NCBI GenBank assembly: GCA_017412265.1 | Contig: JAFPYK010000211.1 | Coordinates: 1-29,941 of the forward strand | Direction: 5' to 3' | Length of the DNA: 29,941 nucleotides | Origin: Lachnospiraceae bacterium | Lineage (GTDB): Bacteria; Bacillota; Clostridia; Lachnospirales; Lachnospiraceae | Shown: positions 1,069 through 27,105 of the stretch, piece by piece | Layout: each line of letters opens with the position of its first letter | How positions within the stretch are numbered: the stretch's first letter is position 1 | The notes under the pieces: generated by a model | The model's database searches: none | What the model was told of the DNA's origin: nothing | The model's input: the letters and a program-made list of their open reading frames with translations, nothing else | Program-made: the position numbers and the translations under genes

Positions 1069-1069
1069 C

Positions 1070-11134: not shown

Positions 11135-12007
11135 TTATTTTGCAGCTCTCTGCTGAAAGAGGCGGATCCGGTTCGTGTGATATTTCACCTCGTGGATGCG
11201 TCTGGGCAGCGGCGGTACACTCATATAATCACCGTAGAGCAGCGCCAGCAGTTCCTCGCGCCGCACCGGGACGCGGATCGGCCCGTAGCCCGTCTCGACG
11301 ACCTCGGTCTCCTTCATGAGCTCTGCCGGGTAATCCTTCCAGTCCGCATAGGTATCCGCAGTCACATAATAGGTAGCTCCCTCCAGCGGGTACTTCTCCG
11401 CAAGCTCCCGGTAAGTCCGGTCGATCTTCCCGACGGACGCCAGCAGGGCCGGCAGTTTTCTCTTCAGAAGCAGCGAAGCAAACCGCCGCGGCCGTCCCAT
11501 CGACTCCTCGATCAGATTCACAAACTTCCCGTAGCGCTTCTCCGAGATATCCGCCATCTGCCTGGCAAATGCCCTCCGCTCCGCCTCATCCTCCGGCGAG
11601 CCGATCAGGAAGAAGACATCCACGTGCAGCGCCTCGGTCCGGTACTCCTTCGGAGCCAACCGCATGATCATATGCCGGCAGCGCGGATCCAGGTCCGGCG
11701 AGTACGCATAATACTCGCTGCCAAGGTCCTTCCGGAGCGCCTCCAGAAGCTTCTCCTTCTCCGCGAAAGGCACCAGCACGTCCACGTCATAGTCCCACGG
11801 AATCTGGCCTCCGTCGCGCACGACACCCAGCAGAGACCCGTAGGCGAGCTGGTAATTGACCTGGTTCTTCTCACAGACCCGGTGCAGCTTGGCCAGCGTC
11901 TTCGCCGTCACGCCCTGATACACCTGAAATTCCTTGTATGTCTCTTCAAAATCCGCGGGACACTCATCCCACGCCAACGCTTCCTTTAAAAACTCTTCCG
12001 ATGTCAT
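11135..12007 (-). CDS. licD: LicD/fukutin-family phosphotransferase (290 aa)
   Basis: [34 protein letters not shown] motifs. Confidence 0.88.
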   Translation of the reverse strand: [290 protein letters not shown]

Positions 12008-12928: not shown

Positions 12929-12992
12929 GACTCTACTCCCGTCCTTTCATAGATCTTATCTACATTCTGATGATTTATTCAGTTATCGTCAG

Positions 12993-13017
12993 AAAAACTG
13001 CCGGCGCCTGCCGGCAG
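12993..13017 (-). terminator. Intrinsic terminator inside the polysaccharide operon
   Basis: Minus strand CTGCCGGC-aggc-GCCGGCAG-TTTTT, starting about 15 nt after the stop of tupA copy 2. Confidence 0.75.
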
Positions 13018-13032
13018 CACCTCTTACTTCTT

Positions 13033-13944: not shown

Positions 13945-14067
13945 CGGTTTCTCCTCGCGCAAGTGAAACATATTGCCTGTCAGAGAAACAACGTTTCATA
14001 CTCCCATGTATGCTCAGATTCGTTACTTAGAGATCCGTTTTACCGGGACGCCTCCCGGCCTGCCCGG

Positions 14068-15102: not shown

Positions 15103-16167
15103 TCAGTCTCCCTGCACTTCCTTCATAATTCCAATGGTTCTTCCCACGCCCTGCTTCAGGTCGTAGCGCGGGCGCCAGCCCAGCTGCCGCAGCTTCTCTC
15201 CGTCCAGCCGCGCCTTCGTCGCGACGCTGTAACCCGCGGCTTCCACCGCATCCGGAAGCTCGAAGACCACCTTCCTGCCCACGGTTTCGGCAACCGCCGC
15301 GGCAAGGTCCTTCAGGCGGCTGTCTCCGCTCTCGTCCGCGATATTATAGGCCTCTCCGTCCTGCCCCAGAAGCATGACCGTCAGCAGGCCGCTGACCGCG
15401 TCGGCCACATACGTGAAGCTGTAGTACTGCTCTCCCTTGGACTTGAGCACGATGTCCTCATCATTTAACGCCTTGCGGATAAACTGGCTCAGCGCTTTCG
15501 TGTCATCCATCTTCATCGTCGGCCCGTAAGACCGCGTGAGCCTGGGGATGACCACGTCCAGGTTCTTCTGGGCCCGGTAAGCCTGGCACAGCGCCTCGCC
15601 GCACCGCTTGCTCTCCGGATATCCCGCGCGCATCGTATTGCAGTTGATATAGCCGCAGTACGCTTCGTCAAATAACTCCACGTCTCCCCGGTTATTCCCG
15701 TAGATCTCATTGGAAGACGCGAAGACAAACCGCTCCGCGCGGCGGCTCGCCGCAAACTCCAGAAGCTCATACAGCCCGAAGACATTGATCGTGATCGTGC
15801 CGATGGGATCGGTCGCATACTGCTTCGGATGCGTATTCGAGGCGAGATGCAGCACATAGTCCACCCTCTCGAGCGAAGAACCGTCCAGAGGCTCCCGCAT
15901 ATCGTGCGCGAGGAAGGCCAGACGCTCATCCCCCGCCCATCTGCGGAATCTCCCGGCCGCGGATTCCGGATTCCTCGTGATGGCAACCACCTTGCAGGAG
16001 ATGTCCTCCTGGTTTTTACACATCAGCACGTCGGTGAGAAAGCTGCCGATCAGCCCGGTCGCGCCGGAGATCAAAAGCGTCTTCCCGTCCAGCTTCTCCC
16101 AGGGGAGCGCCAGCGAGCACACCGCCTTCAGATCCTGACAGTATAAAGGACTATCGTAAAGGTTCAT
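15103..16167 (-). CDS. Extended SDR, probable CDP-ketose reductase of a CDP-alditol pathway (354 aa)
   Basis: ISGATGLIG, HLASN, ASSNEIYG, YPESKRCGE motifs; directly follows an IspD/TarI-type cytidylyltransferase. The specific function is inferred from this pairing. Confidence 0.7.
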   Translation of the reverse strand: MNLYDSPLYCQDLKAVCSLALPWEKLDGKTLLISGATGLIGSFLTDVLMCKNQEDISCKVVAITRNPESAAGRFRRWAGDERLAFLAHDMREPLDGSSLERVDYVLHLASNTHPKQYATDPIGTITINVFGLYELLEFAASRRAERFVFASSNEIYGNNRGDVELFDEAYCGYINCNTMRAGYPESKRCGEALCQAYRAQKNLDVVIPRLTRSYGPTMKMDDTKALSQFIRKALNDEDIVLKSKGEQYYSFTYVADAVSGLLTVMLLGQDGEAYNIADESGDSRLKDLAAAVAETVGRKVVFELPDAVEAAGYSVATKARLDGEKLRQLGWRPRYDLKQGVGRTIGIMKEVQGD

Positions 16168-16190
16168 ACCCTTTCACCTCTCCAGATGTA

Positions 16191-16907
16191 TTATTTCAGC
16201 CAGTTGTTCGAATCCGCTTTCAGGAAGGCCTTAAAGAGCTCCAGGTCATCCTTCGTCGTCAGCTTGATGTTCCGGTCTGAGCCCGCTGCGAAGTACAGCC
16301 GCTCTCCCAGTTCAACCATCATCGTGTTCGTGTAGGAAGAACCGTAGATGCCGATCTCCTTCTCGAACGCCTCATGATACGCGTCAAAGAGGCGGCGGAA
16401 CCGGTAGGCCTGCGGTGTAGACACACGCCGGATCGTCTCGCGGGGGATATACTGGACTGTGCTGATATCATCGTCCGCCACGAAGATCTGCTCATTGTAA
16501 GGCATGGAGGTCACCGCATTGCCGTACTGCCGGCACTTCACGATTACGTCCGTGAGGACCGTCGCGTCGACCAGCGGGCGGATCCCGTCGTGGATGATAA
16601 CCGTATCGTCATCCGCGCAGATTCCCTCCAGGTTGTAGACACCGTTGCGAATCGATTCCTGGCCGGTCTTCCCTCCGGGAACGATCCATTTCAGCTTATC
16701 GATGTTAAACTGCTTCGCATAGGCCCAGACCACGTCGGCCCAACCCTCGATGCAGACTACCTCGATCGCGTCCACCTGCGGATGCTTCTGGAATCCCTCC
16801 AGTGTGTAGATCAGCACCGGCTTGTCATTGATGGTGATGAACTGCTTGGGAATACTCTGGCCCATTCTGCTGCCGGATCCGCCGGCAATGATAACTGCAA
16901 CTGTCAT
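16191..16907 (-). CDS. IspD/TarI-family cytidylyltransferase (238 aa)
   Basis: IAGGSGSRMGQSIPKQF, GQESIRNG, IHDGIRPLV, STPQAY, NIKLTTKDDL. Confidence 0.9.
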   Translation of the reverse strand: MTVAVIIAGGSGSRMGQSIPKQFITINDKPVLIYTLEGFQKHPQVDAIEVVCIEGWADVVWAYAKQFNIDKLKWIVPGGKTGQESIRNGVYNLEGICADDDTVIIHDGIRPLVDATVLTDVIVKCRQYGNAVTSMPYNEQIFVADDDISTVQYIPRETIRRVSTPQAYRFRRLFDAYHEAFEKEIGIYGSSYTNTMMVELGERLYFAAGSDRNIKLTTKDDLELFKAFLKADSNNWLK

Positions 16908-18142
16908 GTTAGATCTCCTGACTCTCTTAGTATCTTATCCTTGTCTGTGTGTTTGTTTCTGAACTCAATATATATTGCCAGATACAGCAGATAATTCGTT
17001 CTGCTGTCATAGGACACAAATCCGACGTCCAGCACCAGCATCAGCAGGAGCAGGATCACGCAGATCATCGCGTCATCCTCCACCCATCGCCTCTGCTGCC
17101 GGACAGCTCTCGTCAGAAGGAGGAACGGCATGCTGTAATACAGCAGGAATCCGATCAGGCCTCCGTCCGCCAAAAGCTCCATATAGTTGTTGTGAAGATA
17201 ATACTCTCCCTTGTTGAATACCTCTCCGCCGATCATTCTGGCATTGTCCATGCCGATGCCGAGGAGCGGATGCTCCCTCCAGATCTCGACGCCCAGCTCG
17301 ATCAGCTTGACCCGGTTCAGCGTCGAATTATCGATCTTGCCCTCGCCGCTGAAGAAATTCAGGAATGTCTCAAGCCGGCGGATAATGCCCGCGAACATGG
17401 GCATTCTGGAGGCGACCACCAGCGCGACGACGCCCAGGATCAGAATCAGCCCGAACCGCGTCACCCGCTTGAATCGCTTGGGATCCGACGCGTTCTTCAT
17501 CAGGATCAGCAGGCCGGCGCCGGCGACCAGAAGCAGGAACGCCTTGCGGCTCTCGGAAACTGCCAGGACCAGGAACGAAGGAATCAGGAACACGATATAC
17601 CAGCGGATCTTCCGCTCCTTCAGAATCAGGTACACCTGGATGATGATCGCGTAGGCGATGCTCATGCCCAGCGTGTTCGCGTTCATCGCGTCATTGGAGA
17701 TTCGCTGCTTGCCCAGTGCCTCCAGCACATTCTTAACACCATAGAAGAGGAAGGCATAGACCGAGATCAGATATCCGGTCCACATGACGAGCCTGAGGAT
17801 CTTCTCGACCGAAGCCCTGCTCATGCAGACCAGGCTGACCAGCAGTGTCGTGATCAGCACCCACAGCAGGTCCTTCGTCTTGCTGACCGCCAGCCGCGGG
17901 TACAGTGCCCACAGGCTGCTCGCAAAACAGAAAATCATGAAGAGCAGCAGATGGATCAGCGGCAGCGGATAGACAAACAGAATCCGGAAATGCCCGAGCA
18001 TCAGGTACCAGACCAGGGTCAGCACCACCGTTGCCAGGACGAGGATCTTTCCGTGAGGGATGTGGCCTCCGACGAACAGAGAGACGTAGACCATCAGAAG
18101 CAAGCCCCATATTATTCTGTTTTGCTCGATTCTTTCTCTCAT
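16904..18142 (-). CDS. wzy: Wzy polymerase / O-antigen-ligase-family membrane protein (about 412 aa)
   Basis: Multi-TM; NANTLG, SESRKA, a large loop with STLNR, HPLLGIG and HNNYMELLADGGLIG. Start moved to the ATG at 18142 (AAAGG RBS). Confidence 0.8.
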   Translation of the reverse strand: MRERIEQNRIIWGLLLMVYVSLFVGGHIPHGKILVLATVVLTLVWYLMLGHFRILFVYPLPLIHLLLFMIFCFASSLWALYPRLAVSKTKDLLWVLITTLLVSLVCMSRASVEKILRLVMWTGYLISVYAFLFYGVKNVLEALGKQRISNDAMNANTLGMSIAYAIIIQVYLILKERKIRWYIVFLIPSFLVLAVSESRKAFLLLVAGAGLLILMKNASDPKRFKRVTRFGLILILGVVALVVASRMPMFAGIIRRLETFLNFFSGEGKIDNSTLNRVKLIELGVEIWREHPLLGIGMDNARMIGGEVFNKGEYYLHNNYMELLADGGLIGFLLYYSMPFLLLTRAVRQQRRWVEDDAMICVILLLLMLVLDVGFVSYDSRTNYLLYLAIYIEFRNKHTDKDKILRESGDLT

Positions 18143-18195
18143 CGTCTCAACCTTTCTGTCATCCCCGGATCCGGATTGCATCCCGGGAGCCTCCC

Positions 18196-19350
18196 TTAAG
18201 CCTGCTTTGATTCAATCAGGGATACCGCAGTCTCGCAGGCCTTGCCGGTATCGTAGCTGTCCAGTGCGGCATGATGCTTCTTCACACGCTCCCGGTACTC
18301 CTCATCCGAGAAGGTTTCCATCTGGCGCACCAGCTCCTCGTTGGAACGCGCGATCGGGAACGGCCACTGGCTTGTGGGCACATAAAACCCTCTCTCTGCT
18401 TCGTACTGGTCAATATCCGGTGCATAGATGAAGCACGGGCGCATGGTCAGTGAGAAGTCCCACATCAGAGAGGAGTAATCGGTAATCACTGCAGAGCATG
18501 CATAGAGCAGTTCCTGCATGTCCGGGTAGCGCGTACAGTTCACGACATCCATGCCGGGGAACTCCTTGACCCCGATCCGCGGATGAAGGCGGATGCCGAA
18601 TTTCCAGCTGCCGCCGAGGGTTCTCGAGAGCGTCTCGGTGACCTTCTCGTAATCCACGTCGATCAGGCGGGCTTCCTTGCTGTTCGCGAAGCTCGAAGTG
18701 TCGGAGCGGTACGTCGGCGCATAGAGCACCAGCTTCTCGTCCTCCTTAAGCCCCAGGGTCCGGTAGACCTTCTCCCGGATCTCCGGGCGCTCCTTGAAGA
18801 AGATATCATTTCTCGGAAGTCCGGCAGGGATGCACTGCTTCGGGTCAAACATCATCGCAGGCGCCTCATACTTTGTAAATGCGCCGCAGGACGCGAAGAG
18901 GATGTCCGTGTTCGACGCGTTCATCTTATCCTCGGCCCGGCTGTACTTCGTATCCCAGACGTCGATGCCGACCTTCTTGTAGGCGCCGCCGCCGTGCCAG
19001 GTGTTGATGATCTTCTGCTTCCTGCGCTTCGGAAGATACGATACGCCGCCGCAGTTCGTGAAGATCACGCGGCTCGTCAGCACATAGTAGAAGTACTTGA
19101 CCGACATCGGCTTGACCGCGACTGCGTCTGGCGCGGTCTCCGTCCCGGCCTTCACCGGGTAGATTACCTCGTACTTGCCGGGACATTTCTCCCGAAGGTA
19201 CTCATTGATGTATTTCAGACTGTCATTGTAAGTGAATCCCTGTTCGTTAATCAGGGCAATCCGGTTCTTGCGGACCGGGAACACCCAGTACACGTGCAGA
19301 ACCGCGTGCAGAGCTCTCTTAATCGCTAAATGCAGCCATTCCTTGTTCAT
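18196..19350 (-). CDS. TagF/TagB-family CDP-glycerol/alditol phosphotransferase (about 384 aa)
   Basis: NTWHGGGAYKKVG, GLPRND, LYAPTYR, DMQELL, ITDYSSLMWDF. Start at the ATG at 19350 (GAGGTG RBS); the GTG at 19362 is an alternative. Confidence 0.9.
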   Translation of the reverse strand: MNKEWLHLAIKRALHAVLHVYWVFPVRKNRIALINEQGFTYNDSLKYINEYLREKCPGKYEVIYPVKAGTETAPDAVAVKPMSVKYFYYVLTSRVIFTNCGGVSYLPKRRKQKIINTWHGGGAYKKVGIDVWDTKYSRAEDKMNASNTDILFASCGAFTKYEAPAMMFDPKQCIPAGLPRNDIFFKERPEIREKVYRTLGLKEDEKLVLYAPTYRSDTSSFANSKEARLIDVDYEKVTETLSRTLGGSWKFGIRLHPRIGVKEFPGMDVVNCTRYPDMQELLYACSAVITDYSSLMWDFSLTMRPCFIYAPDIDQYEAERGFYVPTSQWPFPIARSNEELVRQMETFSDEEYRERVKKHHAALDSYDTGKACETAVSLIESKQA

Positions 19351-19358
19351 TCGTATTC

Positions 19359-20624
19359 TCACCTCACGGATACTTCGTAGAGTCGCCGGCGTCCCTCAAA
19401 GACCGAGTCGAAGCAGACACGGTCTCCCGCGCGGTTGAAGCGCGGGTGCAGATCGCAGCGCGTATCATTGTCATAAGAGAACGGAGAGAAGACCTCGGCA
19501 ACGGTCCTTAACGGTTCCGTTTCGCTGTCTGCGACCCGCAGATACTGGACCCTCTTCCTGTCCGGATAAGAGTCCGTGACGATCATGCTGCGGTCGGGAT
19601 TGTAGCTCGGATGCCCGTCGCCGTTGATCTCCGGCCAGCAGTGAACGAACTCCTGCGTCCGGTCCTTCATCAGGTAATAGCCGGGGCCGGATTCCTTCTT
19701 GTTCTCGAACGCGAGGATCTCCTCGTTGCTCTTCCAGAAGCAGTGGCTCACCATATCGTCGTCCGAGAGCACATACATCTCCGACCCGTCCGCGTTGCAC
19801 GTCATCAGCCGGGTGTACTTCCGCTCTCCCACGAACCACCGGTACAGCACCATGAACCGCTTGCCGTCCGGGCAGATCATCAGATGATTGACCTTGTGGA
19901 CCGCTCTCGGATCCAGCATCTCTTCTCTCGGCTCAAACGCGGCAAAATCCTTGTACGTGAGGAGGTTTGTCACCTCGCCGGTGTGAAGATCGATCTTCCT
20001 CACCGCCACGGCATCCGGCAGCGCCTCTCCCTTGGTTTTCTCCGGAAGATTGTAATATCCGTAGCCCGGGCGCAGCGAATAAAGCCTGCTGAAATCGAGT
20101 GTCAGCGCGTAGCTTCCGTCCTCACTCACCGAATAGACCGGAGCCGGAATCACTCTCTCGGAGCCGCTCTCGATCTCGTGGATCACGCTCACATACTGCC
20201 CGTTACGAAAATCATTGTAAATGATCCGCGCAGAGCAGTCCGGGCCCAGCCACTGCATCATGCAGCCCTGCTGGACGTTCCAGGTATGCGTCTCGGCGAT
20301 CTTGCGCACCCGCTCCGGCGCGTCCTTCTTCGCCTTCGTATCGATCAGCAGAATGTCCGCAGGCTCCTTCGGGCTGACGTCCTTACGCGTCTCCTTTGCC
20401 CGGAGGCAGAGCACATAGCGGTCGGTCCGGTCCCACGGGGACCGGTCATAATAGCCGAAGAAATACTCCCACGCAGGGTCATTGGGCGAGAGCCGGCTCA
20501 CCTTTCCCTTGCACCGAGGCGGCCTGCTCACCGCGACCATCGCGTGCTGGTAGACGGACTTGACCGCCTTCTTTACTTTGGGAAATCTGTTCAGATAATA
20601 ATTTACTCTTTGCTCAAATCCCAT
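19359..20624 (-). CDS. TolB-like beta-propeller protein of unknown function (421 aa)
   Basis: Repeated H-x-x-[FWY]-x-P-D-G-like blades (NHLMICPDG, SHCFWKS, GHPSYNPD, LHPRFNRAG); GAGGAG RBS; tightly coupled to its neighbours. Confidence 0.7.
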   Translation of the reverse strand: MGFEQRVNYYLNRFPKVKKAVKSVYQHAMVAVSRPPRCKGKVSRLSPNDPAWEYFFGYYDRSPWDRTDRYVLCLRAKETRKDVSPKEPADILLIDTKAKKDAPERVRKIAETHTWNVQQGCMMQWLGPDCSARIIYNDFRNGQYVSVIHEIESGSERVIPAPVYSVSEDGSYALTLDFSRLYSLRPGYGYYNLPEKTKGEALPDAVAVRKIDLHTGEVTNLLTYKDFAAFEPREEMLDPRAVHKVNHLMICPDGKRFMVLYRWFVGERKYTRLMTCNADGSEMYVLSDDDMVSHCFWKSNEEILAFENKKESGPGYYLMKDRTQEFVHCWPEINGDGHPSYNPDRSMIVTDSYPDRKRVQYLRVADSETEPLRTVAEVFSPFSYDNDTRCDLHPRFNRAGDRVCFDSVFEGRRRLYEVSVR

Positions 20625-20629: not shown

Positions 20630-21451
20630 TTATCTCCTCAGCAGTTTTTGATAAATGAACTTCTGGAAGCCTACCGGCAGAATGAATGTGCCCAGCTGGG
20701 CGACGGCAACCTTCAGGAAATCAAAGAAGGAGTTAAAGCCGGATCTCCAGGCGTTGTAACGGATCTCAATCAGGATCTTCGTGTTGATCCAGGATTTTCT
20801 CTTCTTGTAGGTCCCCTCGTCAAACCGGAACCGGAACAGCGGCTCCGGCAGGTTGGCACATACGGCTCCCGCGGAAAGCATCCGGATCCACAGGTCCGTG
20901 TCCTGGTTCTTCCGGTAATCCGAATAGCAGCCGACCTTCTCAACCATTGACTTGCGGTACATGACCGTCGGATGGTTGAAGGGATCCCTCGTCTTCGCGA
21001 AACGGTAGATCTCCTCATTCGTCAGGGGGACCCTCCGCTCCCCGACGACATTGTCGATCGTGCCCACGAACTCCTTGACCGGGCAGCCGATAATATCCAG
21101 AGAAGGGTTCTTCTCAAACTCCTCCGCCTGGCGGCGGCACCGCTCCGGCAGCGAATAATCGTCCGAATCCATGCGCGCGATCAGCTCGCAGGAGGCCTGC
21201 TTGATACCTTCGTTCAAGGCGCGGCCCAGTCCGACATTGACCGGCAGAGAGACCTCCTTGATCGGGGCTCCCGCCTGCTTCTTCTCGTCAATGACACGCT
21301 GCAGCTCCTCCGTGACCGGGCCGTCCTTGACCAGGACGATCTCCTTCGCGGGGTAGGTCTGGCTGAACATACTGTCCAGTGCCAGAGAGAAATACGCCGG
21401 ATTGTCTTTTCCGTAGACGGTCATTAATACAGAATATGGTTCCATCGTCAT
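20630..21451 (-). CDS. GT2-family glycosyltransferase (about 273 aa)
   Basis: YSVLMTVY, LVKDG, NVGLGRALNEG, ARMDSDD, FNHPTVM, QDTDLW. The start may instead be 21445. Confidence 0.9.
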   Translation of the reverse strand: MTMEPYSVLMTVYGKDNPAYFSLALDSMFSQTYPAKEIVLVKDGPVTEELQRVIDEKKQAGAPIKEVSLPVNVGLGRALNEGIKQASCELIARMDSDDYSLPERCRRQAEEFEKNPSLDIIGCPVKEFVGTIDNVVGERRVPLTNEEIYRFAKTRDPFNHPTVMYRKSMVEKVGCYSDYRKNQDTDLWIRMLSAGAVCANLPEPLFRFRFDEGTYKKRKSWINTKILIEIRYNAWRSGFNSFFDFLKVAVAQLGTFILPVGFQKFIYQKLLRR

Positions 21452-21466
21452 CTTCCCATCCAATAC

Positions 21467-22156
21467 TCAATGTTTTAATACTGCAAATACAGTCTCAAAC
21501 ATAATCTTCAGGTCTCCGAACGCAGACATCTCCCGGATGCCCTTCAGATTCCACTCCATCTTGCCGGGCAGCACGTCCCGGACATAGACCAGGTCCACGT
21601 CCTCCGCCTCTTTCAGGAGGCGGCTCTCATCCTTGTAGCGGATGCTGGTCTCACTCGTAATGCCGGCCGGCAGCAGCAGCGTCGCCCGGTATTCCGGTTT
21701 ATATTTCTTCACATATTTCACGGCTTCCGGCCTGGTTCCCACGAAGGACATGGTCCCCTGGAGCACGTCGATCAGCTGCGGCAGCTCATCGATCCGCAGA
21801 TGTCTCAGCTTTGCTCCGACCCGGGTGATCCTGGGGTCGCCCCCCACGGTCACGGCCGAGCCGATCTGGTCCGCGTGGTCCACCATCGTCCGGAACTTAT
21901 GAATCTTAAATCGTTTTCCGTACTGGGTCACCCTCTCCTGCCGGTAGAATACCGGTCCGGGAGAATCCAGCTTGATCCAGATCGCGACCGCCGCCATCGG
22001 CAGAGCCAGCAGAACCAGCAGGATCCAGGCAACGGTTACGTCAAATGCACGCTTTAACGTCAGCAGTCCCTGTTTTTTCACAAGGCTGTCATAGTACGGA
22101 CGCACTTCCTCATTCTGCAGAAATGCCGGCAGTTCTTCCCACCTGCGAAGCTTCAT
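21467..22156 (-). CDS. Initiating undecaprenyl-phosphate sugar-1-phosphate transferase (Bac_transf; resembles pneumococcal TacA / Bacteroides WcfS)
   Basis: KRAFD, QERVTQYG, KFRTM, DPRITRVG, DELPQL, MSFVGTRPE, GITS. Start at the ATG at 22156 (GAGGG RBS); 22171 is an alternative. Confidence 0.9.
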   Translation of the reverse strand: MKLRRWEELPAFLQNEEVRPYYDSLVKKQGLLTLKRAFDVTVAWILLVLLALPMAAVAIWIKLDSPGPVFYRQERVTQYGKRFKIHKFRTMVDHADQIGSAVTVGGDPRITRVGAKLRHLRIDELPQLIDVLQGTMSFVGTRPEAVKYVKKYKPEYRATLLLPAGITSETSIRYKDESRLLKEAEDVDLVYVRDVLPGKMEWNLKGIREMSAFGDLKIMFETVFAVLKH

Positions 22157-22172
22157 CGGCTTGACCCTCATT

Positions 22173-23492
22173 TCACAGATATTCCTTCACAACCTCGCTG
22201 AGCACCTCGATGACGTAAGACACATCCTCATCCGAGAGCAATGTGTGCAGCGGCAGGGTGATCAGGTTGTGATAATAGTCATAGGCGTTCGGATAATCCT
22301 TGATATCCGCGCCCAGCGCCTTGTAGGCAGTCATCATGGGCAGCGGCTTGTAATGCACATTCGTGGCTACGCCCTTCGCGGCCATCTTCTCGATGATCTC
22401 GCCGCGCTGCTGCTCCGTGATGCCGGGCACCCGGATCAGGTACAGGTGGCAGCTGCTGTCCATCGTCTCATTGTGGTGAACCAGGTGAGAGATGCCCAGC
22501 GCGTCGCAGGCCGCGTCATATCTGTTCAGAATCCAGGTTCTGCGCGCGAGCAGTCCGGGATAGCGGTCCAGCTGGCGCAGTCCCATCGCCGCCATGATAT
22601 CAGTCATATTGCATTTGTACCAGGGGCCGATGATATCGTACTCCCAGGCACCAAGTTTCGTCTTGGCCAGGGCGTCCTTGTTCTGCCCGTGCAGGGACAG
22701 AAGCTGGTACATGTGATAGATCTCCGCGTTATCAATGCCGGGAATCGGAAGCCACGCCGACGCTCCGCCCTCCGCGGTGGTGAAATTCTTCACCGCGTGG
22801 AAGCTGAAGGATGTAAAATCAGCCATCTGTCCGCAGTTGAGCCGCTTCCCGCCGAACACTCTCGAAGCCCCGAGGCTGTGAGCGCAGTCGGCCACGACAG
22901 CCACCCGGCCCAGAGCCTTCTGGATCCGGGAACCCAGATCCGACAGCACGTCCTCATGGCAGTCCATCGGCGTGAAGAGCGATCTCTTCTCCTCGACGAT
23001 CCGGTTGATCTTCTCGTAGTCGCAGACAATGCCTCCCAGGTCCACGGTGACAATCGCCTTAGTCCGGGGAGTGATCAGTGCGGCCAGCTTCTCGTAGTCC
23101 ATCTCCGGCATATGCGTGTCTGGATCTCCGTCTTTCTGAATATCCGCAAACACAACAACAGCACCGCAATGAATTGCGGCGCTCGCACTAGCCGTATATG
23201 TATATGCGGGAACGATCACTTCGTCCCCCTCCCGCACGCCCAGGATCCGCAGATTCAGTTCCTCTGCGGCCGTGGCGGAATTCAGGCAGACCACCCGGTT
23301 CGCATACCGGGCAGCCCCCTCCTCACTCTCACAGTCCACGTCGTTGCGGCCCGTCTCGATGTAAGCCGCAAGACGTCTCTCCAGCAGCTTGGTCCTCGGT
23401 CCGGTGGTAATCCATCCGGACTTTAACGCTTCGATGACCTCCGCAATCTCATACTCTCCGATATCCGGAGGGCTGAACGGAATTTTTCTCAT
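22173..23492 (-). CDS. DegT/DnrJ/EryC1/StrS PLP aminotransferase (AatB/WcfR-like, 439 aa)
   Basis: IPFSPPDI, SGWITTGP, LNSATAA, DCAHSLG, SFSFHAVKNFTTAEGG (PLP Lys), YKCNMTDI, NVHYKPLP, ITLPLH. Confidence 0.92.
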   Translation of the reverse strand: MRKIPFSPPDIGEYEIAEVIEALKSGWITTGPRTKLLERRLAAYIETGRNDVDCESEEGAARYANRVVCLNSATAAEELNLRILGVREGDEVIVPAYTYTASASAAIHCGAVVVFADIQKDGDPDTHMPEMDYEKLAALITPRTKAIVTVDLGGIVCDYEKINRIVEEKRSLFTPMDCHEDVLSDLGSRIQKALGRVAVVADCAHSLGASRVFGGKRLNCGQMADFTSFSFHAVKNFTTAEGGASAWLPIPGIDNAEIYHMYQLLSLHGQNKDALAKTKLGAWEYDIIGPWYKCNMTDIMAAMGLRQLDRYPGLLARRTWILNRYDAACDALGISHLVHHNETMDSSCHLYLIRVPGITEQQRGEIIEKMAAKGVATNVHYKPLPMMTAYKALGADIKDYPNAYDYYHNLITLPLHTLLSDEDVSYVIEVLSEVVKEYL

Positions 23493-23506
23493 ATTCTCTC
23501 ACCCTT

Positions 23507-25627
23507 TCATTGATCTTCTTCCGACTCGTCCGGCTTCTCTCCGGCTGCCTCGGCTTCGTGATTCTGCTCCTCAGCCAGAAGCGTCTCGTAGGTGGCATCC
23601 TTCTCCGGCTCCTGGTTCTCCTGCGCCGGATGATAGGTGGACACCATGTTCGCCACCAGTGTCCGGATCTCCTTCTTGTTGGCATAGGCCGCGCGCATCA
23701 GCGCCTCCAACTGCCCCAGGAATTCATCTACGTCAAACGGGATCGGGCACCCGATATGAATCAGGTCGTTCTCCGTCTTGCGCAGGCCCTCCTCCGCCAT
23801 CAGCTTCTCTTCATACAGCTTCTCGCCGGGCCGGAGGCCGGTATATTCAATCTTGATATCGACGTCCGGCTTAAACCCGGACAGGCGAATCAGGTTTCTC
23901 GCAAGTGTATCGATCTTGACCGGGCTTCCCATATCCAGGACGAAGATCTCTCCGCCTCTGGCATAAGTGCCCGCCAGCATCACCAGTCGCACCGCCTCGG
24001 GGATGGTCATGAAATACCGGATGATATCCGGATGCGTGACCGTCACCGGACCGCCCTTCTCGATCTGCTTCTTGAAGATCGGGATCACGGAACCGTTGCT
24101 CCCCAGCACGTTGCCGAAGCGCACGGCCACAAACTCCGTCTTCACATCCTTGAAGACCCTGCCCGTGCCGTCCTTGTCCGCATTCTCAAATCCCACATGG
24201 GTAAAGAGCTGCGGGATCTCATCCGCCTTGCCGGCCTTGATCTTCTCGTCGAAGCTCTGGATGAACATCTCGCACAGACGCTTGGAAGCGCCCAAGATAT
24301 TGGTCGGGTTCACCGCCTTGTCGGTGGAAATGAGCACGAACCGCTCACAGCCGTGGACCATCGCCGCGTAAGCTGTCTTGTAGGTTCCGATCGCGTTGTT
24401 CTTGATCGCCTCGTTCGGGCTGTCCTCCATCAGCGGCACATGCTTGTGGGCCGCCGCGTGATAGACGATCTGCGGACGGTAGTCCTCAAAGACCTCGAAC
24501 ATCTTCCGGCTGTCACGCACGGATCCGATCAGGGTCACCAGATCGAGCGCCGGGTACTTCTCCCTCAGCTCCAGCTGGATCGCGTACGCGTTGTTCTCAT
24601 AGACGTCAAATATAATCAGCTGCTTCGGATCGTGTGCCGCAATCTGCCGGCACAGCTCGCTTCCGATCGATCCGCCGCCGCCCGTTACCAGGACGACCTT
24701 GCCGCTCACGAACTGGTACACACCGCTCATGTCCGCCTTGATGGGATCTCTCCCCAGGAGGTCTTCCACAGAGACCTTCTTCATGGCGCTGACCGAGACC
24801 TCACCGTTCACCAGCTGGTACATGCCTGGCAGATTCTTCAGTTCACAGTCCGTCTCCTGGCAGATATTCAGGATATCCCTTCTCTCCATGGCAGAGGCAG
24901 ACGGAATGGCCAGAAAGATCTTATCGATCTTGTATTTATCCACCGCTGCCAGGATCTCGTCCCGGCCGCCGACGATCGGTACACCGTCCACGTAGCGGTT
25001 CCATTTGTTCGGGTTGTCATCGATGATGCAGACCACACGGTCCTGAAGTTCCTTCGCTCTCTGGATCTCCCTCAGGATGTTCTGCCCGGCGATGCCCGCG
25101 CCGATCAGCATGACCCGCTTGATATCATGATCGTCGGCCCGGTGCTCCCGCAGAAGCAGGACGAACCGGTAGGCGAACCGGACACCCAGGATGAAGACAA
25201 ACTGGATCAGTGCTCCGATGCAGTAATAAGAGATGGGCATCCGCTGATACAGAGCCGTAATCGCCACGATATGGAACACTGCCGTGATCGCGGAGGAAAA
25301 ACCGACACGCATCAGTTCGGAATAGCTGGCGAATCTCCACAGGCTCCTGTAGAGATGCAGGAACCAGAAGACCACAAGGCAGAACACGGTATAGATCGGG
25401 ATAAACTTCTCCCAGGCAACGATATACTGCGGCTCGATCTTGGAGAACGTGCAGTCGAAGCGAAGCCAAAGTGCCATAAAATATGCCATATTGACCACGA
25501 TGATGTCGTACACTCCGAGAACCAGGGCAATCATCTGCCAATGTTCCAGGCCGAACGGTCTTTTCTTTTTTCCTTTTTTCAGGCTCGAACTCGATACCTT
25601 TTCATCCTTTCGATGTTCAGTGCCCAT
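23507..25627 (-). CDS. Membrane-bound UDP-GlcNAc 4,6-dehydratase (CapD/PglF/AatA family, 706 aa)
   Basis: Four N-terminal TM segments; IGAGIAG; TGGGGSIGSELCRQ; HAAAHKHVP; STDKAVNP; RFGNVLGSNGSV; RYFMTIPEA; GLRPGEKL. Confidence 0.93.
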   Translation of the reverse strand: MGTEHRKDEKVSSSSLKKGKKKRPFGLEHWQMIALVLGVYDIIVVNMAYFMALWLRFDCTFSKIEPQYIVAWEKFIPIYTVFCLVVFWFLHLYRSLWRFASYSELMRVGFSSAITAVFHIVAITALYQRMPISYYCIGALIQFVFILGVRFAYRFVLLLREHRADDHDIKRVMLIGAGIAGQNILREIQRAKELQDRVVCIIDDNPNKWNRYVDGVPIVGGRDEILAAVDKYKIDKIFLAIPSASAMERRDILNICQETDCELKNLPGMYQLVNGEVSVSAMKKVSVEDLLGRDPIKADMSGVYQFVSGKVVLVTGGGGSIGSELCRQIAAHDPKQLIIFDVYENNAYAIQLELREKYPALDLVTLIGSVRDSRKMFEVFEDYRPQIVYHAAAHKHVPLMEDSPNEAIKNNAIGTYKTAYAAMVHGCERFVLISTDKAVNPTNILGASKRLCEMFIQSFDEKIKAGKADEIPQLFTHVGFENADKDGTGRVFKDVKTEFVAVRFGNVLGSNGSVIPIFKKQIEKGGPVTVTHPDIIRYFMTIPEAVRLVMLAGTYARGGEIFVLDMGSPVKIDTLARNLIRLSGFKPDVDIKIEYTGLRPGEKLYEEKLMAEEGLRKTENDLIHIGCPIPFDVDEFLGQLEALMRAAYANKKEIRTLVANMVSTYHPAQENQEPEKDATYETLLAEEQNHEAEAAGEKPDESEEDQ

Positions 25628-25649: not shown

Positions 25650-27062
25650 TCATCTGGTTAAGATAAATCCGATCAGGGGATTGCCGGACGCCTTAACCGC
25701 TCCCAGCTCATCTGCAATCTCTGCATTGGCGGAAGTCTGCCATCCTTCGACGCAGACTACAGAGCACTCTTCTCCGAGCGCCTCCACTGCGGCAGCATCC
25801 TTGTTCGGGTTCCCCCCGAGTTTACATTCGATTCCCGACAGCTTCCGGGCCAACAGCTCGCAGATCGCGGCCATCTTCTGGCCGTCGGCCGTGCCCAGGA
25901 GCAGCACCTTCTTCGCGTCATGCAGACGCAGGCGAAGCGCCGCGGCGATGTATGCCGCTTCCTCTTCTTCGCTCGCCTTGTCGATCATTCCGAGATGAGC
26001 GGCGCAGGCGCGGTCCATGCCTTTCACATGTCTCTTCTTCCCCGACGTGAAGACGCCGAGCACCGGAACACCGTAACGCTCCTGCAGGACCTTGGGGCTG
26101 CACACCCGGTCTCTCAGATAGAAATCCACGAAGAAATAACCCGCGGCGAGAATCAGGCCGCCGATGAGTCCGATGATCCCCAGCTTAATGCCCTGCTTGA
26201 TGATCGTGGTCTTGCTGGGAACCGTCTTCTCCGGCTCCACCAGCTTCTTTAACTGCGCCTCTGCGTCGTCAATCTCTGTCGAGTTGCTCTCATAATCGCT
26301 GCTGAAGGCAATCTGGAGATTGGCCAGATCCAGGTCGAGTGTCCGGGAAGATCCCTCGCTGACCACAGACAGTGTATGTTCACCGATCACCGTGTTCAGC
26401 AGCTGCTCGTTCTCCTCCATCACGCGCCGGACCTCAGCCAGCACCTTGTCGCCCCGCTCTTCCGTATCCGCGATCACGGTAATCGTCATCAGCCCGTTTG
26501 CGAGATCCGCATCGATCGAATAGATGTTTTTCTTCGCATACTTCGTGACCGTGTGAGCCGTCGTCAGATCCGCCCCGCCGGGCATGTCGATCAGGTCATC
26601 GAACGGAATCCGGTTCACCGCCGCCGAGTAGCTGTTCACCAGCGCCTCGGTATAGTTGGGATTCTGGTACATGACCCCCGGTATGATCTCGTAGTTCGTA
26701 TCAATAAAATACGTCACCGAAGTCTGGTAAATATTGTACGGATCCATGAGAAGGAGGAGCGAATTCTGCTTATAGTAATCCAGCTTGGCCACCCACTCCC
26801 GGAGGTTCGCGGCCTTCGTCTCGTAGGTCTCCTTGCTGCGCTCATACTTCTCCAGCTTCGTGAGGTAGGCCTCTTCTGCCTTCGCTCTTGCTTCCGGATC
26901 CGTATAATCGCGGTACTCTTTTACAACGCCGTATACTCCCAGAAGAAGCCCGAACAGAAGCATGGTAACGATTATGGCACGCCAGTGGCGCATGATCGAC
27001 CAGAACAAATCACAAATACGTACTTCGATTTCATCATTTCTGCTATAAGTGTTCTCTTTCAT
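25650..27062 (-). CDS. Wzz/Wzc-like polysaccharide co-polymerase with a degenerate C-terminal domain (about 470 aa)
   Basis: EIEVRICDLF, TM1, coiled-coil loop, TM2 (GIIGLIGGLILAAG), RYGVPVLGVF. Start at the ATG at 27062 with an upstream GGAGG (long spacing). Confidence 0.8.
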   Translation of the reverse strand: MKENTYSRNDEIEVRICDLFWSIMRHWRAIIVTMLLFGLLLGVYGVVKEYRDYTDPEARAKAEEAYLTKLEKYERSKETYETKAANLREWVAKLDYYKQNSLLLLMDPYNIYQTSVTYFIDTNYEIIPGVMYQNPNYTEALVNSYSAAVNRIPFDDLIDMPGGADLTTAHTVTKYAKKNIYSIDADLANGLMTITVIADTEERGDKVLAEVRRVMEENEQLLNTVIGEHTLSVVSEGSSRTLDLDLANLQIAFSSDYESNSTEIDDAEAQLKKLVEPEKTVPSKTTIIKQGIKLGIIGLIGGLILAAGYFFVDFYLRDRVCSPKVLQERYGVPVLGVFTSGKKRHVKGMDRACAAHLGMIDKASEEEEAAYIAAALRLRLHDAKKVLLLGTADGQKMAAICELLARKLSGIECKLGGNPNKDAAAVEALGEECSVVCVEGWQTSANAEIADELGAVKASGNPLIGFILTR

Positions 27063-27105
27063 TTTGTCAGAAACTTCCTCCAAGTATAGGTTTATAATCC
27101 ATTAT

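What the first reader, a model, noticed from the sequence alone, without database searches (positions are those of the whole stretch)
21467..25627. AATGal initiation trio without an N-acetyltransferase: predicted zwitterionic, pneumococcal-teichoic-acid-like polymer
Seen: dehydratase, aminotransferase and priming transferase are adjacent, and no PglD-like acetyltransferase is present in the window. The aminotransferase and transferase closely match my recollection of pneumococcal AatB and TacA (e.g. SFSFHAVKNFTTAEGG, SLHGQxKDALAK, WEYDI, QERVTQY). Known: AATGal with a free amine defines immunomodulatory zwitterionic polysaccharides (B. fragilis PSA, pneumococcal serotype 1), and pneumococcal teichoic acid combines AATGal, alditol-P and phosphocholine. 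Inference: this anaerobe-type genome co-locates an analogous full gene set and may make a host-active zwitterionic glycan.
Basis: partly seen in the sequence, partly recalled or inferred. Interest (0 to 1): 0.68.

Follow-up and report, generated by a model that had tools for sequence, protein, structure and literature searches.

The report
AATGal-type primer module, rumen Clostridia
Three adjacent genes in a cattle-gut bacterium very probably make the rare positively charged sugar AATGal and use it to start a phosphate- and choline-rich cell-surface polymer, much as the pneumococcus starts its teichoic acid; the module is a known kind and is common in gut and rumen bacteria.

Summary
Window 21467-25627 (minus strand) carries three tightly packed genes. 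They are a membrane PglF-type UDP-GlcNAc 4,6-dehydratase, a sugar 4-aminotransferase about 59% identical to pneumococcal Spr1654/AatB (PDB 6EWJ), and a small phosphoglycosyl transferase. No PglD-type acetyltransferase was found in the window or in the 84%-complete genome.

- The same 18-gene operon adds Wzx, Wzy, a Wzz-like protein, TagF-like, Stealth and LicD phosphotransferases, and a CDP-alditol synthase.
- Choline uptake and activation genes lie beside it.
- The genome carries 76 choline-binding repeats.

Across 85 related loci, the same aminotransferase family is followed in one of two ways. Either a window-type or WcfS/WbgY-type transferase follows directly, with no amine-modifying gene (0 of 60). 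Or amine modifiers follow, together with a different transferase clade (15 of 16). This favours a free amine at the priming step.

Not shown: C4 stereochemistry, whether the amine stays free in the finished polymer, and any effect on the host.

The module occurs in at least 597 GTDB species. A published wcfR screen anticipated it, and this scan has flagged it repeatedly on other genomes. It is a new member of a known kind, of moderate to low interest.

The parts
23507..25627 (-). Membrane-anchored UDP-GlcNAc 4,6-dehydratase (PglF/Spr0092/UngD2 type), 706 aa
   Evidence: PF02719 at 3e-113 and CoA_binding_3. PDB PglF 5BJU at 5.9e-82, with the STDKAV stretch aligned and a roughly 32-aa insertion at residues 462-493. 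Four N-terminal hydrophobic segments.
22173..23492 (-). PLP-dependent UDP-4-keto-6-deoxy-GlcNAc 4-aminotransferase (Spr1654/AatB/WcfR type), 439 aa
   Evidence: DegT at 8e-77. PDB 6EWJ (Spr1654) at 3.2e-137, about 59% identity over the full length, with the Schiff-base lysine motif SFSFHAVKNFTTAEGG identical. PglE scores only 33.8 bits. Homologues at 57-78% identity in at least 597 GTDB species.
21467..22171 (-). Small monotopic phosphoglycosyl transferase (Bac_transf), 234 aa, predicted UDP-AATGal:Und-P AATGal-1-P transferase
   Evidence: PF02397 at 2.4e-54. One re-entrant hydrophobic segment. The DELPQL dyad is conserved and there is no GLLLP loop. In the tree it sits in a 100%-supported clade, joined at 89% to the WbgY/Fusobacterium/Bacteroidales type. 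It is the only Bac_transf in the MAG.
20630..21463 (-). GT2 glycosyltransferase, likely adds the second sugar to Und-PP-AATGal
   Evidence: PF00535 at 5.5e-25. It lies 3 nt after the transferase gene. This is the same position as the GT2 next to the aminotransferase in the S. sonnei O-antigen cluster.
19359..20624 (-). 421-aa beta-propeller protein, homologue of the 414-aa 'glycosyl transferase' of the S. sonnei O-antigen cluster
   Evidence: No Pfam family. 29% identity over 98% of its length to L091:4769-6013. Atlas leads only: a TolB/PD40-like fold that is often fused to GT2, GT4 or GT32 domains.
18196..19362 (-). TagF-like CDP-alditol/glycerol phosphotransferase
   Evidence: PF04464 at 1.4e-63. 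TarF/TarL/TarB NCBIfam hits, all below cut-off.
16904..18181 (-). Wzy_C membrane protein (repeat-unit polymerase or ligase)
   Evidence: PF04932 at 5.7e-17. About 10 hydrophobic segments. It is the only Wzy_C in the MAG.
15103..16907 (-). IspD/TarI-like cytidylyltransferase plus SDR reductase: split CDP-alditol (probably CDP-ribitol) synthase
   Evidence: PF01128 at 1.1e-37 and PF01370 at 1.9e-43. The ribitol-5-P cytidylyltransferase subfamily scores 133 bits, below cut-off. The P. distasonis locus carries the fused form, annotated as bifunctional cytidylyltransferase/SDR.
14068..15102 (-). Stealth family hexose-1-phosphate transferase
   Evidence: Stealth CR1-CR4, with CR2 at 8e-44.
12008..13971 (-). 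Two TupA-like ATP-grasp ligases (probable amidoligases acting on a uronic acid carboxylate)
   Evidence: PF14305 at 8e-75 and 5e-72. The precedent is Cj1438C (PMC11800379). No BLAST similarity to the ATP-grasp_4 ligases that follow the aminotransferase in other loci.
11135..12007 (-). Divergent LicD-family phosphotransferase (phosphocholine or alditol-phosphate)
   Evidence: PF04991 at 3.4e-16. N-terminal match to a cholinephosphotransferase model.
8500..11119 (-). PGA_cap (CapA-like) protein and Wzx flippase; end of operon
   Evidence: PF09587 at 1.7e-50 and PF01943 at 3.8e-13. Twelve hydrophobic segments in Wzx. A 17-bp-stem bidirectional terminator lies at 8452-8489.
25650..27083 (-). 477-aa two-TM protein, probable Wzz-like chain-length regulator; first gene of the operon
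   Evidence: No Pfam family. Atlas leads to 'chain-length determining protein' clusters. A promoter-like site on the minus strand spans 27134-27106.
1..3581 (-). Choline supply genes: BCCT transporter, LicC-like cytidylyltransferase, HTH-nucleotidyltransferase-choline kinase fusion
   Evidence: PF02028 at 1.5e-96; PF12804; PF01633 at 9.8e-15 plus PF12804 plus HTH_24.

Best explanation
The three genes form the synthesis-and-priming module for 2-acetamido-4-amino-2,4,6-trideoxy-D-galactose (AATGal, also called FucNAc4N).

Proposed steps:
1. The membrane-anchored PglF-type dehydratase converts UDP-GlcNAc to UDP-4-keto-6-deoxy-GlcNAc.
2. The Spr1654/WcfR-type PLP aminotransferase aminates C4, using glutamate as donor.
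3. The small monotopic transferase moves AATGal-1-phosphate, with its 4-amine still free, onto undecaprenyl phosphate.
4. On this primer, the rest of the operon (27083 to 8500) builds a repeat unit rich in phosphodiesters: a GT2 and a propeller protein, TagF-like alditol-phosphate transfer from a CDP-alditol made in the operon, Stealth hexose-1-phosphate transfer, and LicD-type phosphocholine or alditol-phosphate transfer.
5. A uronic acid made by the neighbouring Ugd is probably included and amidated by the two TupA-like ligases.
6. The unit is flipped by Wzx, polymerised by the Wzy_C protein under a Wzz-like regulator, and attached to the wall by LCP enzymes encoded elsewhere.
7. The phosphocholine would serve as anchor for the organism's many choline-binding-repeat proteins.

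Shown here: domain identities, homology levels, gene order and comparative co-occurrence.

Inferred: the galacto configuration, the free amine in the mature polymer, the order of assembly, and wall attachment.
For: Enzyme identities:
- Pfam, NCBIfam and PDB matches for all three enzymes.
- The aminotransferase is about 59% identical to Spr1654, the aminotransferase assigned to AATGal synthesis in pneumococcal teichoic acid (PMC5936713; PMC4649388). It is remote from PglE.

Comparative genomics:
- The aminotransferase-transferase pair is adjacent and in the same order in most related loci.
- In 85 loci, 0 of 52 window-type and 0 of 8 WcfS/WbgY-type loci have an amine modifier within 5 kb. Among loci with another transferase clade, 15 of 16 have one: ATP-grasp_4, PglD-like, formyltransferase or PIG-L.
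- Aminotransferases of the two kinds of locus are interspersed in the tree.
- In the transferase tree the window clade has 100% support and joins the WbgY/Fusobacterium/Bacteroidales clade at 89%.

Published assays:
- The pneumococcal, F. nucleatum and B. fragilis small transferases use UDP-FucNAc4N (PMC11626204).
- PglF plus WcfR plus WcfS give Und-PP-AATGal in E. coli (PMC13063421).

Own genome:
- No PglD-like gene in the MAG.
- No homologue of the PglD-like, PIG-L or ATP-grasp modifiers. The only formyltransferase hit is 29.5% identical, on contig 23, and was not examined.
- Operon content.
- Choline genes and 76 choline-binding repeats.
- This is the sole non-MraY priming transferase and the sole Wzy_C in the assembly.
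- Two LCP genes lie elsewhere.
Against: - Neither Spr1654 nor any enzyme of this clade outside Bacteroides has had its product's C4 configuration determined. PMC5936713 states that this remains to be shown.
- The S. sonnei AATGal aminotransferase is only 30.6% identical to the window's, so function does not map simply onto this family.
- The pneumococcal-type transferase also accepts UDP-Bac to a lesser extent (PMC11626204).
- The MAG lacks about 16% of its genes.
- ATP-grasp enzymes can acylate UDP-4-amino sugars (Pyl of B. cereus, cited in PMC11626204), and two ATP-grasp ligases of another family are in the operon.
- The transferase could not be compared directly with Spr1655 or WcfS.
- The LicD is divergent (57 bits, N-terminal half only).
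Confidence: 0.66

Rival explanations
1. The amine does not stay free. After priming, or on the nucleotide sugar, the 4-amino group is acylated. The acylating enzyme would be one of the two TupA-like ATP-grasp ligases of the operon, or an acyltransferase encoded in the unassembled 16% of the genome. The mature polymer would then not be zwitterionic through AATGal.
For: - ATP-grasp ligases sit directly after this same aminotransferase family in 9 to 10 related loci.
- Two ATP-grasp genes lie at 12008-13971.
- The MAG is 83.8% complete.
Against: - The window's ligases are PF14305 (TupA-like), not the ATP-grasp_4/LAL type found next to the aminotransferase elsewhere, and show no BLAST similarity to them.
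- The biochemical precedent for the TupA-like fold is amidation of a glucuronate carboxylate (PMC11800379). A Ugd gene is present.
- In all 15 loci with modifiers the transferase belongs to another clade, whereas the window's transferase belongs to the clade never seen with modifiers.
Confidence: 0.2
2. AATGal is only a linkage-unit primer, present once per chain. The TagF-like enzyme polymerises alditol phosphate on the lipid-linked primer, and the Wzy_C protein acts as a TacL-like ligase rather than a polymerase. The amine would then contribute little to the polymer's charge.
For: - A TagF-family enzyme is present.
- Wzy_C proteins include ligases such as pneumococcal TacL (PMC12017771).
- An earlier follow-up in this scan reached this reading for a Lachnospira module (e1-5192774).
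Against: - The operon has a MOP-type Wzx flippase, a Wzz-like protein and a single Wzy_C. This is the set expected for block polymerisation of repeat units, each of which starts with the primer sugar.
- No ABC exporter is encoded in the window.
- The TagF-like protein is the size of a single-addition enzyme (388 aa; its best NCBIfam hit is TarF, below cut-off).
Confidence: 0.12
3. The aminotransferase gives the gluco epimer, so the primer is N-acetylbacillosamine with a free 4-amine rather than AATGal.
For: The stereochemistry of Spr1654-type enzymes has not been shown directly (PMC5936713). The pneumococcal and F. nucleatum transferases also accept UDP-Bac (PMC11626204).
Against: - Pneumococcal and S. 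oralis teichoic acids contain AATGal by NMR, and Spr1654 is the aminotransferase assigned to its synthesis (PMC4649388).
- The window's enzyme is about 59% identical to Spr1654 and only marginally similar to PglE, the bacillosamine enzyme.
- Bacteroidales homologues at 57-60% identity sit next to 195-aa transferases, as wcfR sits next to wcfS.
Confidence: 0.07

Closest known systems
Streptococcus pneumoniae (mitis group) type IV teichoic acid initiation: Spr0092 dehydratase, Spr1654/AatB aminotransferase, Spr1655 transferase, followed by a Wzx/Wzy-type pathway with ribitol phosphate and phosphocholine
   Same: - Same three enzyme types.
- The aminotransferase is about 59% identical over its full length, with an identical lysine motif.
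- The aminotransferase and transferase genes are adjacent, as spr1654-spr1655 are.
- Same overall logic: MOP flippase, Wzy_C protein, CDP-alditol, LicD, choline uptake and activation, and choline-binding-repeat proteins.
   Different: - The dehydratase is linked to the other two genes here but unlinked in the pneumococcus (PMC4649388).
- A BCCT transporter is used rather than LicB, and the choline kinase is fused to a nucleotidyltransferase and an HTH domain.
- Alditol phosphate is probably added by a TagF-like enzyme, not LicD3.
- Extra Stealth, TupA-like, CapA-like and Ugd functions are present.
- There is only one LicD, and it is divergent.
- The aminotransferase has insertions of about 17 and 11 residues.
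- Direct comparison with Spr1655 was not possible.
Bacteroides fragilis PSA initiation: UngD2 (or PglF) + WcfR + WcfS
   Same: - Biochemically established route from UDP-GlcNAc to UDP-AATGal to Und-PP-AATGal (PMC13063421).
- Aminotransferase directly followed by a small transferase, with no acetyltransferase.
- Bacteroidales homologues are 55-60% (aminotransferase) and 44-48% (transferase) identical to the window's proteins.
   Different: - The Bacteroidales transferases are 195-196 aa and form a separate clade.
- PSA has a pyruvylated galactose as its negative charge, not phosphodiesters.
- The B. fragilis proteins themselves could not be fetched for comparison.
Shigella sonnei / Plesiomonas form I O-antigen cluster (WbgV-WbgZ region on the virulence plasmid)
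   Same: - Five genes have counterparts here: propeller-type 'glycosyl transferase' (29% identity), GT2, aminotransferase, 196-aa transferase (43% identity) and PglF-like dehydratase (37% identity).
- No acetyltransferase is present. From general knowledge, the product contains free-amine FucNAc4N.
   Different: The aminotransferase is only 30.6% identical, no closer than PseC or ArnB enzymes. Gene order differs. The cluster has no phosphotransferases or choline genes.
Campylobacter PglF-PglE-PglD-PglC (di-N-acetylbacillosamine) and B. subtilis EpsC-EpsN-EpsM-EpsL
   Same: The first step is the same, and the dehydratase is clearly PglF-like (5.9e-82). Both use a small monotopic transferase with the DE dyad.
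   Different: - No PglD/EpsM-type acetyltransferase.
- PglE scores only 33.8 bits.
- The transferase lacks the GLLLP loop, and its C-terminal region does not align with PglC (PMC10186338).

Membership tests
AATGal (FucNAc4N) synthesis-and-priming module (Spr0092/Spr1654/Spr1655; UngD2/WcfR/WcfS) | Retaining PglF-type UDP-GlcNAc 4,6-dehydratase with a membrane anchor | tested here: met
   PF02719 at 3e-113. PglF 5BJU at 5.9e-82 with STDKAV aligned. Four N-terminal hydrophobic segments.
AATGal (FucNAc4N) synthesis-and-priming module (Spr0092/Spr1654/Spr1655; UngD2/WcfR/WcfS) | Aminotransferase of the Spr1654/WcfR clade with the PLP lysine | tested here: met
   6EWJ at 3.2e-137, about 59% identity, residues 3-435 aligned, lysine motif identical. 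WcfR itself was not available. Bacteroidales homologues are 55-60% identical.
AATGal (FucNAc4N) synthesis-and-priming module (Spr0092/Spr1654/Spr1655; UngD2/WcfR/WcfS) | Product has an axial (galacto) 4-amino group | not testable with these tools
   Needs enzymology and NMR. Not shown even for Spr1654 (PMC5936713).
AATGal (FucNAc4N) synthesis-and-priming module (Spr0092/Spr1654/Spr1655; UngD2/WcfR/WcfS) | Small monotopic transferase of a FucNAc4N-using cluster, adjacent to the aminotransferase | tested here: inconclusive
   - The genes are adjacent, 1 nt apart.
- The window clade (100% support) joins the WbgY/Fusobacterium/Bacteroidales clade at 89% SH-aLRT.
- The validated reference proteins (pneumococcal A0A0H2ZRD5, WcfS Q93QV6, F. 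nucleatum D5RFH4; PMC11626204) could not be fetched, so cluster membership was not tested directly.
AATGal (FucNAc4N) synthesis-and-priming module (Spr0092/Spr1654/Spr1655; UngD2/WcfR/WcfS) | No N-acyl-, N-formyl- or aminoacyl-transferring enzyme acting on the 4-amine | tested here: met
   None in the window. None in the 83.8%-complete MAG by PglD_N, TIGR03570 or Hexapep searches, or by tblastn with the modifiers from related loci. The TupA-like ligases remain a formal possibility.
Di-N-acetylbacillosamine pathway (PglFEDC) | PglD-type N-acetyltransferase | tested here: not met
   No PglD_N match. TIGR03570 scores at best 26.5 bits against a cut-off of 160.8, and that match lies on the dehydratase's own Rossmann-like domain.
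Di-N-acetylbacillosamine pathway (PglFEDC) | PglC fingerprint: GLLLP loop and C-terminal aromatic box | tested here: not met
   In the alignment to C. concisus PglC, the loop reads GSAVTVGGDPR. The alignment ends at PglC residue 151, so the C-terminal box is not matched (PMC10186338).
Pneumococcal-type (type IV) phosphocholine teichoic acid | Wzx/Wzy-type assembly on undecaprenyl phosphate with alditol phosphate inside the repeat | tested here: met
   Gene-content evidence only: Wzx, Wzy_C, a Wzz-like lead, IspD plus SDR, and TagF-like.
Pneumococcal-type (type IV) phosphocholine teichoic acid | Phosphocholine decoration (choline uptake, LicA, LicC, LicD) and choline-binding proteins | tested here: met
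   - Gene-content evidence only: BCCT, choline kinase fusion and two cytidylyltransferase-like genes; LicD.
- 76 Choline_bind_1 repeats on at least 12 ORFs, against 0 of 14 control genomes.
- The LicD is divergent and its substrate is unknown.
Pneumococcal-type (type IV) phosphocholine teichoic acid | Polymer attached both to peptidoglycan (LCP) and to a glycolipid (TacL) | tested here: inconclusive
   There are two LCP genes elsewhere. The single Wzy_C protein cannot be assigned as polymerase or TacL-like ligase.

The most novel reading that the evidence does not exclude
This uncultured ruminant-gut Clostridia bacterium makes, as its only lipid-linked wall glycopolymer, a Wzy-assembled, AATGal-primed, phosphocholine-bearing teichoic acid. 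On this polymer it hangs a large family of choline-binding-repeat proteins. That would mean the 'type IV' teichoic acid plus choline-binding-protein system, described in the literature as unique to mitis-group streptococci, also exists in strict anaerobes of the rumen. Here it carries additional hexose-1-phosphate and amidated uronic acid features.
Probability: 0.35. Interest if true: 0.5.

Novelty: new member of a known kind. Interest (0 to 1): 0.3.

Why it matters
AATGal is the positive charge in the few zwitterionic bacterial polysaccharides known to modulate T cells, and it is the first sugar of pneumococcal teichoic acid. This locus shows the same primer module joined to a choline- and phosphate-rich polymer in a cattle-gut anaerobe.

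The comparative result is a practical rule for annotating these very common loci. The same aminotransferase family is followed either by its own transferase clade with no modifier, or by amine modifiers plus a different transferase clade. Which of the two follows predicts whether the amine is free at the priming step.

This does not open a new question. A published wcfR-based screen already predicted hundreds of such loci. The small-transferase specificity clusters are already mapped experimentally. This scan has met the module many times on other genomes.

Tried and rejected
1. I tried to anchor the aminotransferase on the S. sonnei AATGal enzyme through the plasmid collection. It is only 30.6% identical, like PseC or ArnB enzymes, so it gives no support. 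It shows that AATGal aminotransferases are not one tight clade.
2. I tried to obtain pneumococcal Spr1655, B. fragilis WcfR/WcfS or C. jejuni PglE as sequences for trees. The one genome-contig scan returned only the 80 closest loci, with no Streptococcus or B. fragilis. PDB hits are not usable as protein ids, and typing sequences was avoided. The transferase's SSN cluster therefore remains untested.
3. The Neff et al. 2016 paper (the wcfR screen) is not held. I relied on its description in PMC10167101.
4. I looked for a trans-acting acetyltransferase. The Hexapep hits turned out to be a GlmU-like protein and the C-terminus of a GlgC-like gene.
5. I asked whether the module is a core trait of the bacterial family. 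It is not: window-type transferases occur in 7 of 60 genera sampled. LicD is common, in 40 of 60.
6. Transcription: contigs from three RNA libraries match short pieces of the trio exactly. DNA carry-over cannot be excluded and coverage is sparse, so this is not counted as evidence.
7. Promoter and terminator scans inside the trio gave only chance-level hits.
8. The name 'TacA' for the pneumococcal transferase was not found in the TA paper I searched for it. In that paper the operon is called SPV_1620-aatB.

Full report
**What is there**

The window is one whole contig (C100) of a metagenome-assembled genome. The MAG is 1.96 Mb in 343 contigs, 83.8% complete and 4.7% contaminated. GC is about 57%.

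Near-identical DNA for the trio occurs in bovine and sheep gut metagenomes from many separate studies. The closest homologues come from rumen and gut Oscillospiraceae, Ruminococcaceae and Lachnospiraceae MAGs. The organism is therefore an uncultured ruminant-gut Clostridia bacterium.

Coordinates 21467-25627 hold three minus-strand genes separated by 14 nt and 1 nt.
- 23507-25627, 706 aa. Polysacc_synt_2 at 3e-113 and a CoA_binding_3 domain, with four N-terminal hydrophobic segments. The best solved relative is C. jejuni PglF (WlaL, 5BJU) at 5.9e-82. The STDKAV stretch that holds the PglF catalytic Thr-Asp-Lys aligns exactly, and there is a roughly 32-residue insertion at 462-493.
- 22173-23492, 439 aa. 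DegT family at 8e-77.
- 21467-22171, 234 aa. Bac_transf at 2.4e-54, with one hydrophobic re-entrant segment.

**Which amino sugar**

The aminotransferase matches PDB 6EWJ/6EWQ/6EWR at E 3.2e-137 (461 bits) over residues 3-435. That entry is Spr1654 of S. pneumoniae, the essential aminotransferase assigned to UDP-AATGal synthesis for teichoic acid (PMC5936713).

I counted 234 identities over the 395 aligned residues in the printed alignment. These include the Schiff-base lysine motif FTSFSFHAVKNFTTAEGG.

The next best solved relatives are ArnB-type enzymes (164 bits and below). PseC scores 90 bits. PglE, the bacillosamine enzyme (1O61, 4ZTC), scores only 33.8 bits.

The S. sonnei plasmid-borne aminotransferase of the FucNAc4N O-antigen is only 30.6% identical. 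The assignment therefore rests on the Spr1654 clade and not on a general 'AATGal family'.

The Spr1654 paper itself says that product formation from UDP-4-keto-6-deoxy-GlcNAc remains to be demonstrated. The biochemical anchor is B. fragilis WcfR (PMC13063421; PMC11626204), which I could not fetch. Bacteroidales and Parabacteroides homologues of the window's enzyme are 55-60% identical and are followed by 195-196-aa transferases, the wcfR-wcfS arrangement.

**The transferase**

Against solved structures it is no closer to PglC (74 bits) than to WbaP (71 bits). In the alignment to C. concisus PglC:
- the catalytic DELPQL is conserved;
- the diNAcBac-specific GLLLP loop is replaced by GSAVTVGGDPR;
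- the alignment stops before the C-terminal aromatic box (fingerprint defined in PMC10186338).

It is 43-47% identical to the 195-196-aa transferases that sit next to the aminotransferase in S. sonnei, F. vincentii and P. distasonis. It is 55-72% identical to the transferases next to the aminotransferase in 52 Clostridia loci.

In a maximum-likelihood tree of 76 transferases, the window-type proteins form a clade with 100% SH-aLRT support. This clade joins the S. sonnei/Fusobacterium/Bacteroidales type at 89%.

Published assays show that the pneumococcal, F. nucleatum and B. fragilis small transferases use UDP-FucNAc4N. They fall in two similarity clusters (PMC11626204). Whether the window's protein belongs to the pneumococcal cluster could not be tested directly.

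**Is the amine left free?**

Within the window, none of the 25 genes has a hexapeptide, PglD_N, GNAT or formyltransferase domain.

Six-frame searches of the MAG gave the following:
- No PglD_N match.
- No NeuD/PglD match above cut-off. The best is 26.5 bits, on the dehydratase's own Rossmann-like domain.
- Four hexapeptide matches, belonging to a GlmU-like protein and to the C-terminus of a GlgC-like gene upstream of glgD.

The stronger argument is comparative. I classified 85 loci with an aminotransferase homologue: 80 from GTDB species and five from annotated records. Seventy-six of them also hold a transferase.
- In 52 the aminotransferase is followed by a window-type transferase, directly in all but two or three loci.
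- In 8 it lies directly beside a 195-aa type transferase.
- In 16 the transferase is only 29-37% identical to the window's.

Genes next to the aminotransferase in this third class include ATP-grasp_4/L-amino-acid-ligase-type enzymes, a PglD-like acetyltransferase, formyltransferases and PIG-L deacetylases.

Counting homologues of these modifiers within 5 kb on the same strand gives 0 of 52, 0 of 8 and 15 of 16.

On the aminotransferase tree the third class is scattered among the first: 15 changes for 16 rows, no better than shuffled labels. One aminotransferase family therefore feeds two alternative downstream modules.

Fifteen independent contrasts on the best tree all go the same way. Only four rest on well-supported branches, so the formal test is weak.

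tblastn of the modifiers against the MAG finds only a 29.5% match to a formyltransferase on contig 23, which I did not examine further.

Together these results favour transfer of the unmodified 4-amino sugar to undecaprenyl phosphate.

**The rest of the operon**

Promoter-like and terminator-like sites suggest one operon, from the gene at 27083 down to wzx at 8500. It ends at a 17-bp-stem bidirectional terminator at 8452-8489. In order of transcription it encodes:
- a two-TM protein with Wzz-like leads;
- the trio;
- a GT2;
- a 421-aa beta-propeller protein, 29% identical to the 414-aa 'glycosyl transferase' of the S. sonnei cluster;
- a TagF-like phosphotransferase;
- a Wzy_C protein;
- an IspD/TarI-like cytidylyltransferase and an SDR, which together resemble the fused CDP-ribitol synthase annotated in a P. 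distasonis AATGal locus;
- a Stealth hexose-1-phosphate transferase;
- two TupA-like ATP-grasp ligases;
- a divergent LicD;
- a CapA-like protein;
- Wzx.

At the left end of the window lie a BCCT transporter, a LicC-like gene and an HTH-nucleotidyltransferase-choline kinase fusion. Between that group and the operon, on the plus strand, lie a UDP-glucose dehydrogenase (499 bits), a GHMP kinase, a nucleotidyltransferase and an epimerase.

Elsewhere the MAG has:
- 76 choline-binding repeats on at least a dozen ORFs, where none of 14 control genomes has any (confirmed on two proteins);
- two LCP ligases;
- no other Bac_transf gene;
- only MraY among GT4-type transferases;
- no other Wzy_C.

In the assembled part of the genome it is the only such pathway.

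**The ATP-grasp question**

ATP-grasp enzymes can acylate UDP-4-amino sugars (Pyl of B. cereus, cited in PMC11626204). Ligases of the ATP-grasp_4 type do sit after this aminotransferase in other loci.

The window's two ligases are of the TupA-like family (PF14305). They lie 8 kb from the aminotransferase, beside LicD and the CapA-like gene, and have no BLAST similarity to the aminotransferase-adjacent ligases.

The characterised enzyme with this fold, Cj1438C, amidates the carboxylate of glucuronate in a capsule (PMC11800379). The family is generally predicted to add amino-acid decorations to surface polysaccharides (PMC13419641). With Ugd next door, uronate amidation is the more likely role. 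Acylation of the amine is not excluded; I give it about 0.2.

**How common, how new**

The aminotransferase has thousands of homologues at above 75% identity in metagenomes. Relatives occur in at least 597 GTDB species across Clostridia, Bacteroidales, Coriobacteriia and others.

A published genomic screen for wcfR orthologues with neighbouring PSA-like genes already reported hundreds of genomes in diverse orders (described in PMC10167101). This scan has flagged the same module on many other genomes, with follow-ups calling it a known kind that is common in gut Clostridia.

Within the organism's own family the window-type transferase was found in only 7 of 60 genera sampled, while LicD was in 40 of 60. 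The primer module is thus a patchy, probably mobile, part of variable surface-polysaccharide loci.

Only 1 to 15 of the 80 GTDB loci share any given downstream gene of the window.

**Verdict**

It is unsupported for everything that needs chemistry or immunology.

This is a new member of a known kind. The most useful by-product is the rule that transferase clade and the presence of modifiers, not the aminotransferase, tell whether the amine is free at the priming step.

Evidence for expression is limited to a few exact-matching short contigs in RNA libraries. I do not count it.

Noticed in passing
window 19359-20624 (-): The 421-aa protein has no Pfam family. It is 29% identical over 98% of its length to the 414-aa 'glycosyl transferase' upstream of the GT2 and aminotransferase in the S. 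sonnei O-antigen cluster (L091:4769-6013). Atlas leads describe a TolB/PD40-like beta-propeller that elsewhere is fused to GT2, GT4 or GT32 domains. It may be an uncharacterised accessory or glycosyltransferase family tied to AATGal-primed glycans.
   Followed up: partly
G000 contigs C178, C307, C144, C212, C231, C241, C25, C214, C117, C278, C95, C329: There are 76 choline-binding (Choline_bind_1) repeats on at least a dozen ORFs in a 2-Mb genome, while none of 14 control genomes has any. Two proteins were confirmed with Choline_bind_1 and Choline_bind_3. The catalytic domains of these proteins were not identified.
   Followed up: partly
L012, L016, L019-L022, L027, L028, L038, L039, L046, L063, L072, L084 (downstream of the aminotransferase): In 15 of 16 loci with a different transferase clade, the same aminotransferase family is followed by ATP-grasp_4/LAL-type ligases (sometimes two in tandem), formyltransferase plus PIG-L deacetylase, PIG-L alone, or a PglD-like acetyltransferase. 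This is a set of alternative N-modification cassettes for the 4-amino sugar.
   Followed up: partly
L090 (P. distasonis plasmid NZ_OY725790.1, 64772-81968): A Bacteroidales capsule locus combines the aminotransferase plus 195-aa transferase pair with a bifunctional cytidylyltransferase/SDR (CDP-ribitol synthase type), LicD, Wzx and Wzy. AATGal plus alditol-phosphate chemistry therefore also occurs in Bacteroidota.
   Followed up: no
window 3784-5388 (+) and 1779-3581 (-): Both divergent operons start with an enzyme fused to a DNA-binding domain: XRE-type HTH plus UDP-glucose dehydrogenase, and winged HTH plus nucleotidyltransferase plus choline kinase.
   Followed up: no
window 8452-8489: A 17-bp-stem hairpin flanked by an A-run and a T-run lies between the convergent epimerase and wzx genes. 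It looks like a bidirectional intrinsic terminator.
   Followed up: no
window 25650-27083 (-) and 27249-28964 (-): Upstream of the dehydratase lies a 477-aa two-TM protein with Wzz-like (chain-length regulator) leads but no tyrosine-kinase partner. Beyond it lies a 571-aa protein with one N-terminal hydrophobic segment and weak GDSL/SGNH and ILEI-like matches.
   Followed up: partly
window 12929-13032: A terminator-like hairpin (13018-12997, minus strand) sits in the 104-nt gap between the two TupA-like genes, inside the operon.
   Followed up: no
window 21766-25524: Short contigs (150-220 nt) from three RNA-type libraries (anaerobic digester, bovine gut, sheep gut) match pieces of the three genes with 0-2 differences. 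This is a hint of transcription, not proof.
   Followed up: partly
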